This document shows positions 61,601 to 64,000 of a stretch of DNA of 64,000 nucleotides, piece after piece (the first letter of the stretch is position 1; every line of letters begins with the position of its first letter). Position numbers: made by a program. Origin of the DNA: Perkinsus olseni (lineage: Eukaryota); contig JABANN010000109.1 in assembly GCA_013115125.1 (NCBI GenBank), forward strand, positions 1 through 64,000, given 5' to 3'.

Positions 61601-64000
61601 TATTCACGGCCGCGGTTTCTGATGCAAGAAAGCATTTCGTGGGTCTCTCCATCGTACCTTGAAAGCTCCTATGAGCATTCGTCGGCGGGGATGTTGCCTT
61701 GACGAGAACTCGGGTCGTGTCCCATCGGGTGGCGGCTACAGCCTCCCCGCAACCTCCTACCATTGTCTTGTTAGACTGTCACACGCTGGCAGAAGCGCAC
61801 GAGGAAGGTCGGTCGCCTAGGGCCGCAAGTGGTCTCACCGAGGAGCTTTGTGGCCCAGCCTTCGATGACTACTGCAAGTGCGACGACCCGCAGGATCCGG
61901 TGTCGTTGGTAAGCTTCGTGGGGCATTCTCGGCGACGTGTAGGCTGTCCGGTATTCGCGACAAGCTCGGAATCCCGAGTGATCAGCGACCGTGCCAGTTG
62001 ATGGTGGTTTGCTTCAGCAACGGATTTGGGTCGAAGGCCAAGACGGCGGTCGGAAAGCTAGCGACGAGATAGAGTTTCTGTTTTCGTATTATGAAGATGA
62101 CAAGTTCATTAGAGGTGAGTCGCCGCTTTGGGTGTGTGCATGCGTGCATACTCACTGTGCAGGATTCTCCATCACAACATTGCAGTACATGCTCCGGCAG
62201 CCTCGTCCGATTCAGCATCCCGTCAGTCGAAAGGTCATACCCGATTCTGTTCTGGAGCGGGCGGAGCAAATGGTCAAGGTAGCGAGCTTCGCCGGCCGCA
62301 TGGGTGAGGTGTCTTTATCTTGCAGCATCTAGAGTCAACCGGTGCAATTGACCCGGTCACTGTGAGAGACCTAGCATCCGTACCGCTCAAGGACCTGACA
62401 AGGCGGGACGTGCAGCAGCTCAGCTTGGAGGTACTTGGGGGGTTCACTCTGTGCTAATGTATGCAGCCTCGACTGGTGATTGCTGAGTGCTTCAGGTGTG
62501 GCAGTTGATGGCTCGGCAGTCGGTCTACGTCGAGGAGGACACTCTGGTCGATATGGACCGGGCACAACTTTGTAATACGGACTTTAGCTCCCCTCTTCTC
62601 AGCAGTTTCTCGGCTCAGTAATGCTCAACTCCGAGCTTCGGTCGATGTTCACCGAGAACTTCACTGTGGAGCAGCGGCGGCTGTTCTATCCCCCGGATGG
62701 CACCCCGTTTATGAAGATCCACGAGGCGATTATCGGAGGCAGCGAGGTGGGCTCCTCGAACTCGGCAGCTGCCTGGCGCCAGCAGTGATGCTGGTTAGGA
62801 CATACCTCCCAGCTCTCGGTCGTTGGGTGCTGTGCAGGGCATTCTGAGGGACTTGCGGACAGTAGGTTCACGTTCATCGTTCCGTCATGGGCGGCCTGGG
62901 TAGACGAAATACTTTAGGCCCGTCCTGAGAGGCCTGTCCTGTGATAAATGTGTTTGGGATCTCCTCGATGCCGTGATGGGAGTTCTCGCCGGAGTGTGGA
63001 AACTAGGGTTCGCGCGGAGTGTGTCGCAGAGCTCTGAAATGATCTGGGTTGTATGGTAGTAGTGGGTGATTGCCTCAGATACTCACCAACGCCCCTGAAA
63101 ATATGAAGTTCATGGTCTCGTATGTCATAGTGGGGGCGCTGGCAGTAGTCAGTAGCCCCATCAGGGCCAGGTGAGTTCTTCGGAATGGGCCGCAGCTCCG
63201 CTCCGGCCATACCCCTTATCAAGGGAAATGTTATAGCTTTGTTGGCGACGGACGAAGTAGATACGCTGAGGGATGGGAATCATTCGTTGTAGACCCCGAC
63301 TGGGGAAGTTGCCGGTGTAGTCGCAAACACTCATGCAACGTCAGGAGTGCACCACACTTGGTGTGAGGCGGTACGCCTAGGTGCTGACGGTCTTTTGAGT
63401 GCTGAGGGCTTCGGCACAATCGACTGCGGACCGTATTGTACACACGATGTCGTCGTATGACGGCTCGCTGTGAGTTTTAGCGCTTGATGAGGTTGCATGG
63501 AGCGCATGTGGCGTGCGGGTGGATGAAAAGCTGCTACGAAGTATCAATGGCGGGAAGGATCGGGTTTAGGTACATGACTGGACTCAGTCATTCTTTCGAA
63601 ATCCCACCAACGGGTATACATGGTGACGATGGGTACTCGTCTGACGGGGATGATGGCGAGTTCGGCCATGGCGTTGAAGAGGATGATTCTGACGGAGAGG
63701 ACTTGGGTGACGAATTCTGACAAGTCGTCATACCAACTTTTTTGAAGATTTCGGCGGCTTCGCTGACCTACTACTTTTGTTAATATTTCCGTTCTGTCAC
63801 AATTCTTGCCAGCTCGATCTGGCACCAGCAGCAGCCGCCCGTATCTCCTAGAAGAATCAAGAAAGAGGATTGCCGGGGCGGCGGCGGCGAGTGGAAAACA
63901 CTATCGAATGCTATAGTCGTAGCTGTAGGTGTTGCATATTTATCATCATACTACTACTAACATGACGTCCCGCTTACTTGCACGGTTAGTCATCGTCGTC

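What the first reader, a model, noticed from the sequence alone, without database searches (positions are those of the whole stretch)
61860..63290. Intron-rich host gene resembling a giant-virus conserved protein
The motif order DPVSL / FSYYEDDKFIRGF / HPVSRKVIP / VWQLM / ELRSMF / YPPDGTPF / YVIVGALAVVS recalls an uncharacterised Mimiviridae-type family (FSY..D..IYGF, NP..R..IP, CPPxGxPF, YVLGALTLV), with a U-box/RING-like first half. It carries ordinary short host introns. Inference: an anciently domesticated NCLDV gene, or a rare cellular source of the viral family.
Basis: inference. Interest (0 to 1): 0.7.

Follow-up and report, generated by a model that had tools for sequence, protein, structure and literature searches.

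The report
Perkinsus gene shared with giant viruses
An expressed, 14-exon gene of the mollusc parasite Perkinsus olseni encodes an uncharacterised protein domain otherwise found mainly in giant viruses of the Mimivirus group, which records an old gene exchange between those viruses and early relatives of dinoflagellates.

Summary
All seven motifs lie at the stated places. They belong to one + strand gene of 14 exons, 60863-63720, identical to Perkinsus olseni protein FOL46_000431. All 13 GT-AG introns are joined in contigs of four public runs.

The giant-virus link is real.
- A profile of four Perkinsus orthologues found 128 representatives. Most are AT-rich complete ORFs.
- 18 of 23 close relatives of one such ORF carry the giant-virus 2C_adapt domain.
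- One relative lies in the Mimiviridae assembly cPacV-1605.
- Profile comparison gives 99.5% probability.
- Fold matches are Tupanvirus, Faunusvirus and CroV proteins.

Named cellular homologues are only Perkinsus and Amoebophrya. In the tree, 23 cell-like rows separate from 47 virus-like rows with support 99/98. The root, and so the direction of transfer, is open.

No Pfam family covers the core. Its first half weakly resembles zinc-free RING/U-box folds. Viral copies sit beside ubiquitin E1 and RING genes. A role in ubiquitin signalling is an inference. This is a new member of a known kind, of moderate interest.

The parts
60863..63720 (+). Whole gene (start codon to stop codon): 14 exons and 13 introns, encoding the 436-aa protein P0002 (P. 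olseni FOL46_000431)
   Evidence: A spliced mapping reproduces P0002 exactly. tblastn finds the exon pieces.
60863..60917 (+). Exon 1 (residues 1-18)
   Evidence: The joint 60916/61113 is seen in 4 of 4 runs.
61114..61171 (+). Exon 2
61238..61302 (+). Exon 3
61352..61425 (+). Exon 4
61474..61570 (+). Exon 5 (holds the basic stretch KKRK, 61531-61542)
   Evidence: The joint to exon 6 is seen in 3 of 4 runs.
61775..61908 (+). Exon 6; the conserved core starts here (residue 132 at 61819); ends with DPVSL
62018..62114 (+). Exon 7
62163..62278 (+). Exon 8 (holds the family-wide His-Pro motif HPVSRKVIP)
62326..62430 (+). Exon 9
62496..62571 (+). Exon 10
62619..62746 (+). Exon 11 (ELRSMF, YPPDGTPF)
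62799..62861 (+).
63079..63170 (+). Exon 13 (hydrophobic helix YVIVGALAVVS)
63570..63720 (+). Exon 14: end of the core (residue 399 at 63606), acidic tail, stop codon
60863..61806 (+). Coding for residues 1-127: variable, Ser/Arg-rich region predicted to be disordered
   Evidence: 10-residue block means of pLDDT are mostly below 50 here. Conservation among the four orthologues is poor.
61840..62349 (+). Coding for residues 139-240: beta-rich first subdomain, weakly RING/U-box-like, with no conserved zinc ligands
   Evidence: Model pLDDT above 90. Fold matches. Conserved positions.
62383..63579 (+). Coding for residues 252-390: all-helical second subdomain built around a buried hydrophobic helix
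   Evidence: Model. Best match ASFV M1249L C-terminal part, Z 8.4; colicin pore domains, Z about 6.

Best explanation
SHOWN. The finding is a genuine, transcribed and spliced nuclear gene of Perkinsus olseni (FOL46_000431; 14 exons, 60863-63720). Its product has three regions:
- a variable, disordered N-terminal region of about 130 residues;
- a conserved core of about 265 residues (residues 132-399);
- a short acidic tail.

The core belongs to an uncharacterised domain family with no Pfam model. Most of the known diversity of that family lies in AT-rich giant-virus genomes of the Mimivirus group (Imitervirales): cPacV-1605, Tupanvirus, CroV, Faunusvirus and many environmental contigs. There the domain ends the protein and often follows a 2C_adapt domain.

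INFERRED. The cellular copies (Perkinsus with at least two paralogues, Amoebophrya with at least two groups, and unnamed environmental sequences of ordinary composition) form one group in the tree. This points to one old exchange between such viruses and an early ancestor of perkinsids plus dinoflagellate-line parasites, followed by vertical descent and duplication. I favour virus to host at about 55-60%. The reasons are that viral diversity is far greater and the cellular range is narrow. The tree has no root, so capture by viruses from an alveolate host is not excluded.

INFERRED, about 35%. Mechanism: the first subdomain is a zinc-free RING/U-box-like module that docks an E2 enzyme or pairs with a true RING partner. 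The helical second subdomain would hold a target. The protein would then act as an adaptor or ligase in ubiquitin-type signalling.
For: Gene and expression
- P0002 maps at 100% as 14 GT-AG exons.
- All 13 joints are seen in contigs of X1, X2 and X4, and 12 of 13 in X10, which is on record as RNA-Seq.
- Orthologues in P. olseni, P. chesapeaki and P. marinus are 68-94% identical and nearly invariant over the core.
- The nearest recognisable neighbour is a cellular IF-2B-family exon.

Homology to viral proteins
- 128 representatives at E<=1e-3 and 37 at E<=1e-10.
- hhalign probability 99.5%, E 3.4e-22.
- BLASTP against the cPacV-1605 protein: 28% identity, E 1e-31. This is about as close as against Amoebophrya: 31%, E 1e-35.
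- BFVD fold hits at E 2e-10 to 3e-7.
- The nearest ESM Atlas clusters are Nucleocytoviricota, score 0.95.
- 18 of 23 relatives of P0021 carry PF08793.
- CABVLZ01 is cPacV-1605 (passages of PMC6792449).
- The viral-type loci have 23-28% GC and dense intron-free ORFs.

Distribution
- Of 30 hits looked up, 7 carry an organism: 1 Perkinsus, 5 Amoebophrya and 1 'uncultured virus' on a 1.41-Mb contig.

Tree
- 23 cell-like rows against 47 virus-like rows: UFBoot/SH-aLRT 99/98, present in 98% of 200 bootstrap trees.
- A further 100/98 branch sets 14 viral rows apart from the rest.

Function
- In the search that does not depend on Foldseek, the top 6 of 6 rows are RING-type ligase domains.
- By entry title, about 33 of 40 re-aligned Foldseek rows are RING/U-box entries.
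- Ubiquitin E1 genes lie 3-6 kb away in L001, L006 and L016.
- A homologous RING protein lies directly downstream in L012, L018 and L021. The same neighbour, with a degenerate RING, is present in L019 and L020.
- L016 has a RING+VWA gene next door and L013 has a Ufd2 core gene.
Against: Direction of transfer
- It is not shown. Cell-like and virus-like rows are simply the two sides of one branch, so a root on that branch makes both groups clades.

Labels and composition
- Unnamed rows were labelled 'cell-like' or 'virus-like' from amino-acid composition alone.
- More than 20 rows fail the composition test of the tree model, so part of the split could be compositional attraction.
- Before the final tree I dropped five long-branch rows and thinned the viral rows by hand from 103 to 47.
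A wider cellular range is not excluded.

Searches that found nothing viral
- Three pattern-based scans of the viral contig collection found no relative.
- No capsid or other hallmark gene was seen in the 20-kb flanks of the metagenome loci.

Function
- All fold scores for the first subdomain are weak: Z at most 4.6 (4.3 for the separate domain model), Foldseek E at least 0.087.
- No Pfam U-box or RING model matches P0002, even at E 10.
- The family has no conserved Cys/His ligand set.
- The neighbouring ubiquitin genes come from related contigs, so they are not independent. No background rate was computed. 4 of 12 distinct loci (L004, L011, L015 and, by Pfam, L020) show none.
Confidence: 0.6

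Rival explanations
1. The family arose in the cell line. An early alveolate (myzozoan) gene was captured once by an ancestral Imitervirales virus and then expanded greatly in viruses. The Perkinsus gene would then be the 'rare cellular source' rather than a domesticated viral gene.
For: - The tree allows a root on the branch between cell-like and virus-like rows.
- The cellular group is itself deep and holds several paralogue lines in Perkinsus and Amoebophrya.
- The Perkinsus gene looks fully host-like: 13 spliceosomal introns, GC like its surroundings, and a cellular neighbour gene.
Against: - Organism-named cellular members come from only two parasite genera. No large cellular cluster appeared in the Atlas.
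- Viral rows fall into several deep, well-supported lineages with different N-terminal modules.
- The midpoint root falls among viral rows.
Confidence: 0.3
2. The helical second half is the working part. It is a globular helix bundle around a buried hydrophobic helix, like the colicin pore domain or Bcl-2 fold. The protein would associate with or insert into membranes, or regulate cell death or immunity. The beta-rich first half would be only a scaffold.
For: - VIA-align matches residues 252-394 to colicin A, S4, B and N pore domains: Z 5.5-6.0, 118-130 residues aligned.
- Foldseek lists colicin A, Bcl-xL, BAK and diphtheria-toxin-like translocation domains among its weak rows.
- There is a conserved hydrophobic helix close to the C-terminus, and viral proteins end about 20 residues after it.
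Against: - All these scores lie in the range that the tool itself calls common for helical bundles (Z under about 13). Foldseek probabilities are at most 0.13.
- The hydrophobic helix is packed inside the bundle at pLDDT about 97.
- This reading does not explain the ubiquitin-gene neighbourhood.
Confidence: 0.1
3. The second half is related to the C-terminal part of African swine fever virus protein M1249L, a partner of the viral RNA polymerase. The family would then act in viral, and by inheritance host, transcription.
For: It is the best structural match of the whole model: 8xy6_I, Z 8.4, rmsd 3.4 Å, 118 residues, model 252-387 against chain 1011-1183; a second entry gives Z 7.9. Both proteins come from nucleocytoplasmic large DNA viruses.
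Against: - Sequence identity is 6-7%, and Z 8.4 is within the noise range stated for helical models.
- A profile search of all solved-structure sequences found nothing at E up to 10.
- No transcription genes were seen beside the viral copies.
Confidence: 0.05

Closest known systems
Uncharacterised Imitervirales proteins: CroV E3T4L7 ('2-cysteine adaptor domain-containing protein'), Tupanvirus soda lake A0A6N1NW45, Faunusvirus A0A3G4ZXE0, cPacV-1605 CPAV1605_1449 (P0146)
   Same: - The same core of about 265 residues, matched end to end: hhalign over 238 columns, BLASTP at 28% identity, Foldseek E 2e-10 to 8e-9.
- The same order of conserved motifs, from the Asp-Pro motif to the hydrophobic helix and the closing Arg-x-Tyr stretch.
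   Different: - The Perkinsus protein has no 2C_adapt or Cys-rich N-terminal module. It has a disordered Ser/Arg-rich leader and an acidic tail instead.
- Its gene has 13 introns and ordinary GC content. The viral genes are intron-free in DNA of 23-28% GC.
U-box and RING domains of ubiquitin E3 ligases (for example APC11, TRIM RINGs, AO7/RNF25, HOIL-1 RING1, CHIP U-box)
   Same: - Small alpha/beta fold of similar size and topology. These domains fill the top of every structural list for the first subdomain.
- Like a U-box, it has no zinc-ligand set.
- Viral copies are neighbours of E1 and RING genes.
   Different: - There is no sequence-model match.
- Scores are weak: Z at most 4.6, Foldseek E at least 0.087.
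- The subdomain carries extra beta-hairpins (strands 165-196).
- E2 binding and ligase activity are untested.
Other genes shared between nucleocytoplasmic large DNA viruses and dinoflagellate-line protists, such as the viral-origin gene transfers reported in Symbiodiniaceae (PMC9651163)
   Same: The same kind of event: a protist nuclear gene whose nearest relatives are giant-virus genes. A Mamavirus paper's figure legend lists Perkinsus marinus among the eukaryotes in a tree of another giant-virus gene (one passage of PMC3163472).
   Different: - This family is not named in the two passages I read of PMC9651163.
- Four literature searches pairing Perkinsus or Amoebophrya with giant-virus terms found nothing on it.
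- Here the gene is shared by Perkinsus and Amoebophrya, which implies a much older event than those described for Symbiodiniaceae.

Membership tests
Imitervirales-type uncharacterised core domain (no Pfam model; often follows 2C_adapt) | End-to-end sequence homology of the core of about 265 residues | tested here: met
   HMMER profile hits at E 9e-20 and 2e-19 to P0020 and P0021 over profile positions 131-382 and 73-382. hhalign 99.5%, E 3.4e-22, 238 columns. BLASTP E 1e-31 against P0146.
Imitervirales-type uncharacterised core domain (no Pfam model; often follows 2C_adapt) | The same predicted fold as named giant-virus members | tested here: met
   Foldseek against BFVD: Tupanvirus 2e-10, Faunusvirus 4e-10, CroV 8e-9, Megaviridae environmental sample 6e-8, F2Y207 3e-7, all at probability 1.00.
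Imitervirales-type uncharacterised core domain (no Pfam model; often follows 2C_adapt) | N-terminal 2C_adapt domain (PF08793); present in many viral members but not all, so not strictly defining | tested here: not met
   No Pfam family for P0001-P0004 other than chance-level rows. 18 of 23 relatives of P0021 have PF08793.
U-box (zinc-free RING-like) E3 domain | Match to the Pfam U-box or RING sequence models | tested here: not met
   hmmscan of P0001-P0004 at E up to 10 lists no U-box or RING family.
U-box (zinc-free RING-like) E3 domain | RING-type cross-brace alpha/beta fold | tested here: inconclusive
   Best rows are RING-type domains, but all are weak. PHF7 Z 4.3 (rmsd 3.3 Å, 74 residues); AO7 RING Z 4.1 (2.9 Å, 65 residues); HOIL-1 Z 4.1. 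APC/C chain E 0.087; TRIM21 RING E 0.27. CHIP U-box Z 2.0.
Canonical RING finger | Eight conserved Cys/His zinc ligands | tested here: not met
   In 120 aligned members, the only invariant or near-invariant positions are Pro213, Asp157, Trp165 and Tyr185. His212-Pro213 is invariant in the 19 cell-like sequences.
U-box (zinc-free RING-like) E3 domain | Binding of a ubiquitin-conjugating E2 and transfer activity | not testable with these tools
No E2 sequence was at hand.
Colicin / Bcl-2-like helical bundle | Helix bundle around a central hydrophobic hairpin, with a significant structural match | tested here: inconclusive
   Colicin A Z 6.0 (3.7 Å, 130 residues); colicin B Z 5.7; colicin N Z 5.5. 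Bcl-xL and BAK have Foldseek probability 0.13.
ASFV M1249L C-terminal domain | Structural and sequence similarity | tested here: inconclusive
   Z 8.4, rmsd 3.4 Å, 118 residues, 6% identity. No sequence-profile hit to any solved chain.

The most novel reading that the evidence does not exclude
The core is a virus-born, zinc-free RING-like ubiquitin adaptor, and one of the more expanded gene families of Mimivirus-group viruses. The common ancestor of perkinsids and the dinoflagellate line (including Syndiniales) took it up and has kept it under purifying selection ever since. The gene would then be a molecular fossil of giant-virus infection of the earliest myzozoans. It would also give a handle on the function of a large 'dark' viral family that works with the virus-encoded E1 and RING proteins.
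Probability: 0.25. Interest if true: 0.65.

Novelty: new member of a known kind. Interest (0 to 1): 0.5.

Why it matters
- **A family without a name.** Neither Pfam nor NCBIfam has a model for the core. The family has more than 100 representative clusters at 50% identity, mostly from giant viruses. This gene ties it to two culturable or genome-sequenced parasite lineages.
- **A marker of old contact.** Exchange of genes between giant viruses and protists is well known, so the kind of event is not new. A copy shared by Perkinsus and Amoebophrya would place the contact with Mimivirus-group viruses near the base of the dinoflagellate-perkinsid line.
- **A testable function.** The conserved placement of viral copies next to E1 and RING genes suggests a ubiquitin-related role for a 'dark' viral family.
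- **For Perkinsus biology.** It flags a conserved, expressed, lineage-restricted protein of unknown role.

Tried and rejected
- **Whole-genome search.** No genome is held for this window.
- **Pfam on single exon-bearing frames.** Nothing found.
- **Scans of the viral contig collection.** I scanned with the Perkinsus alignment, with P0143 and with the 16-sequence viral alignment. No confirmed relative was found. Two further alignments were too divergent for the tool. These scans depend on short exact peptide patterns, so I give the blanks no weight.
- **Searching the records behind the metagenome loci.** They are not held.
- **Profile search of all solved-structure sequences.** 0 hits at E up to 10.
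- **Foldseek of the whole model against PDB.** No row at E<=0.001.
- **NCBIfam.** Nothing relevant.
- **Third homologue search, with the cell-like alignment.** It returned only 6 proteins because low-complexity words saturated the candidate list. It added no names.
- **Complex prediction.** The queue was full twice and then the tool was declared unavailable. Nothing was folded.
- **Integrated viral element?** Of 33 frames of 90 aa or more scanned in 49.7-63.9 kb, one had a Pfam match: a cellular IF-2B exon. There is only one copy of the family in the window. I rejected contamination or a recent viral insert because of the 13 spliced introns and the conservation in three Perkinsus species.
- **Literature.** Six searches found no paper describing this family in Perkinsus or Amoebophrya. 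Papers outside the held library were not searched.
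Full report
**1. What is in the sequence**

Reading 61000-64000 showed short coding stretches separated by GT...AG intervals.

One frame, 61982-62332, runs open across a 48-nt in-frame intron. I used it as a search query. It retrieved four Perkinsus proteins:
- P0002, 'hypothetical protein FOL46_000431 [Perkinsus olseni]', 436 aa;
- P0001, P. olseni, 448 aa;
- P0003, P. chesapeaki, 459 aa;
- P0004, P. marinus, 385 aa.

A spliced mapping reproduces P0002 exactly from 14 exons between 60863 and 63720 on the + strand. All 13 introns are GT-AG and 47-399 nt long. The window is therefore P. olseni nuclear DNA, and the finding's box covers the middle of a larger gene.

**2. Expression and splicing**

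One search for public runs listed 24 that hold part of the stretch. I laid four of them.
- Contigs of X1, X2 and X4 carry all 13 exon joints.
- X10 carries 12 of 13. It is the only one of the four on record as an RNA-Seq library; the others are guessed to be RNA.
- Every joint has GT..AG ends and matches the coordinates.
- Low-depth contigs also cover intron 5 and intron 13. In X1 these have depth 34-35, against 469-576 for the spliced form. They may be unspliced RNA or DNA in the libraries.

These are assembled contigs, so they show that the spliced form exists. They do not show its level.

**3. Conservation within Perkinsus**

The four orthologues are 68-94% identical to P0002. The stretch from about residue 117 to 400 is almost invariant, while the first 110 residues and the acidic tail vary. 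A second, more distant paralogue exists in P. olseni (P0005/P0132, named). Only one copy lies in this window.

**4. Relatives elsewhere**

Pfam has no model for the protein, and NCBIfam has none either.

A HMMER profile of the four orthologues was searched against 1.84 billion representatives. It gave 128 hits at E<=1e-3, 37 at E<=1e-10 and 6 at E<=1e-30.

After three rounds of local profile building, 165 of the 167 proteins then fetched matched one module of 266 positions. 139 covered at least 85% of it.

By composition, 103 of 125 non-redundant full-length rows are strongly AT-biased (Phe, Tyr, Met, Ile, Asn and Lys together at or above 0.30, mostly above 0.35). They are complete ORFs that end just after the module.

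**5. Are the AT-rich relatives viral?**

Several independent lines say yes.
- 18 of 23 close relatives of P0021 carry PF08793, the 2-cysteine adaptor domain. I also saw it directly on three metagenome ORFs and on P0154.
- P0146 is 'CPAV1605_1449 [seawater metagenome]' on CABVLZ010000008.1. The data-accessibility passage of PMC6792449 assigns CABVLZ010000001-14 to cPacV-1605. The abstract places that virus in a deep clade of giant Mimiviridae together with CroV and Faunusvirus (passages only).
- P0068 is 'MVR_LOCUS215 [uncultured virus]' on a contig of 1,410,560 bases.
- Four metagenome loci with 20-kb flanks have 23-28% GC and tightly packed intron-free ORFs with eukaryote-like enzymes. No capsid or other hallmark gene fell within those flanks.
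- The AlphaFold model of P0002 matches predicted structures of Tupanvirus soda lake (E 2e-10), Faunusvirus (4e-10), CroV E3T4L7 (8e-9), a Megaviridae environmental protein (6e-8) and F2Y207 (3e-7).
- The nearest large clusters in the ESM Atlas are Nucleocytoviricota hypothetical proteins, score 0.95 for P0002 and 0.94 for the Amoebophrya domain.

Direct comparisons confirm the homology. hhalign of the Perkinsus profile against 16 viral-type sequences gives 99.5%, E 3.4e-22, over 238 columns covering P0002 residues 134-389. BLASTP of P0002 against P0146 gives 28% identity over 265 residues, E 1e-31.

**6. Cellular relatives**

I looked up 30 of the 128 hits for names.
- Seven carry an organism: one P. 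olseni paralogue, five Amoebophrya entries (strains A25, A120, AT5.2 and Ameob2; at least two distinct gene groups) and the uncultured virus.
- One is an MMETSP transcript with no organism shown.
- The other 22 carry no name that identifies an organism: four are labelled only 'hypothetical protein' and 18 have no name.

P0002 is 31% identical to Amoebophrya P0013 (E 1e-35). That is barely closer than its match to the viral protein.

About a dozen further hits of ordinary composition come from short environmental contigs of unknown origin.

**7. Tree**

FastTree on 125 rows put all Perkinsus, all Amoebophrya and the ordinary-composition rows into one cluster (support 93). One AT-rich row was its sister.

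For IQ-TREE (LG+C20+F+G4, PMSF) I dropped five long-branch rows (P0109, P0104, P0088, P0048, P0118). I thinned the viral rows by hand to 47 and relabelled two borderline rows (P0138, P0016) as cell-like.
- The careful search separates 23 cell-like from 47 virus-like rows with UFBoot/SH-aLRT 99/98, in 98% of 200 bootstrap trees.
- Perkinsus is one group (100/99).
- Among viral rows a 100/98 branch sets 14 apart from the remaining 33 plus all cell-like rows. The cellular group is therefore nested in viral diversity unless the root lies on or inside its own stem.

Caveats:
- There is no outgroup.
- More than 20 rows fail the composition test.
- The labels of unnamed rows come from composition itself.

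The tree therefore supports a single exchange. It does not give the direction.

**8. Structure and likely mechanism**

With a 120-sequence alignment, the model of P0002 has block-mean pLDDT of 90 or more from residue 141 to 390, apart from one dip to 84. The first roughly 130 residues are disordered. The core has two parts:
- a beta-rich part (strands between 165 and 196, then helices to about 237);
- an all-helical part (258-388).

The second model used a whole returned Perkinsus-like fragment (P0006) as first row, so that it covers mainly the first part. Its mean pLDDT is 89.

Its structural neighbours are almost all RING-type ligase domains.
- In the search that does not rely on Foldseek, the first six rows are PHF7, AO7, HOIL-1 (two entries), an APC/C chain and PHF7 again, Z 4.3-3.6.
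- Foldseek's best rows are an APC/C chain (E 0.087), TRIM21, AO7 and TRIM2.
- By entry title, about 33 of 40 re-aligned rows are RING, U-box or RBR entries, or complexes with a RING subunit. I did not verify chain identities in the large complexes. One search is a second look, not an independent result.

None of these scores is significant on its own, and the family has no conserved Cys/His set. 'Zinc-free RING/U-box-like' is therefore a reasonable but unproven reading. My impression that the Asp-Pro and His-Pro motifs stand where U-boxes have their loop motifs is recalled knowledge, not a test.

The helical part best matches the C-terminal part of ASFV M1249L (Z 8.4) and colicin pore domains (Z about 6). 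All are within the range the tool calls common for helical bundles.

**9. Gene neighbourhood in the viral contigs**

I examined 12 distinct loci. L002 and L003 (not scanned; same query match as L001) and L022 (ORF coordinates identical to L021) are taken as near-copies of L001 and L021.

| Loci | Neighbouring ubiquitin-system gene |
|---|---|
| L001, L006, L016 | Ubiquitin-activating E1 gene 3.4-5.8 kb away |
| L016 | Also a RING+VWA gene next door |
| L012, L018, L021 | RING-finger ORF of about 260-280 aa directly downstream on the same strand |
| L019, L020 | The same downstream ORF, homologous over its full length, with a degenerate first Cys pair |
| L013 | A Ufd2-core gene two ORFs away |
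| L004, L011, L015 | None; short contigs |

The loci are related to each other and I computed no background rate. This is suggestive, not proof. The association of 2C_adapt with ubiquitin-system and kinase domains is something I recall from the Pfam description. No call showed it.

**10. Verdict**

- The homology to a Mimivirus-group family is confirmed.
- The narrow cellular range and the single cellular group support one old exchange.
- The direction remains open, with virus to host somewhat more likely.
- The ubiquitin-related mechanism is an inference at about one chance in three.

The kind of event is already known. The family and its presence in Perkinsus and Amoebophrya appear not to be described in the library I could search. 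I read no supplementary files. Gene-family tables in the supplements of giant-virus genome papers could already list this cluster.

Noticed in passing
L012:3293-4078, L018:1884-2720, L019:2905-3699, L020:2631-3437, L021:10853-11632: In five viral-type metagenome contigs a homologous ORF of about 260-280 aa lies directly downstream of the family gene on the same strand. It has an N-terminal RING finger, which is degenerate in L019 and L020. This is a conserved gene pair that may mark a physical partnership.
   Followed up: partly
L001:208-2145, L006:1838-4825, L016:14157-16817: Virus-encoded ubiquitin-activating E1 genes (ThiF, UBA_E1_SCCH and E1_UFD domains) lie within 3.4-5.8 kb of the family gene in three loci. 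One of them is in the cPacV-1605 assembly.
   Followed up: partly
window 62383-63579 (residues 252-390): The best structural match of the helical half is the C-terminal part of African swine fever virus M1249L, a partner of the viral RNA polymerase: Z 8.4, 118 residues, 6% identity. This may be only a common helix arrangement.
   Followed up: no
window 58362-58682, - strand: An open frame matches the IF-2B family (eIF2B subunit / methylthioribose-1-phosphate isomerase type), E 1e-9. It is an ordinary cellular neighbour gene about 2 kb upstream of the finding. Of the 33 frames of 90 aa or more scanned in 49.7-63.9 kb (those of the gene under study were left out), it was the only one with a Pfam match.
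   Followed up: no
window 61571-61774 and 63171-63569 (introns 5 and 13): Low-depth contigs cover parts of these two longest introns (for example X1 at depth 34-35, against 469-576 for the spliced form). This could be unspliced RNA or DNA carry-over. The other P. olseni protein model, P0001, has 17 extra residues at the position of intron 13. The P. chesapeaki model, P0003, has 18 extra residues at the position of intron 12. These are probably annotation differences.
   Followed up: no
P0020, P0025, P0030, P0044, P0055 (viral-type relatives): A second large viral subfamily has no 2C_adapt domain. Instead it carries an N-terminal Cys...Cys...Cys-x2-His pattern with no Pfam match. This may be an undescribed small zinc module.
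   Followed up: partly
P0014 and P0026 (Amoebophrya sp. A25): Two family members of 1181 and 1208 residues lie on the same 2.75-Mb contig with locus numbers six apart. Both have very long low-complexity N-terminal regions.
   Followed up: no
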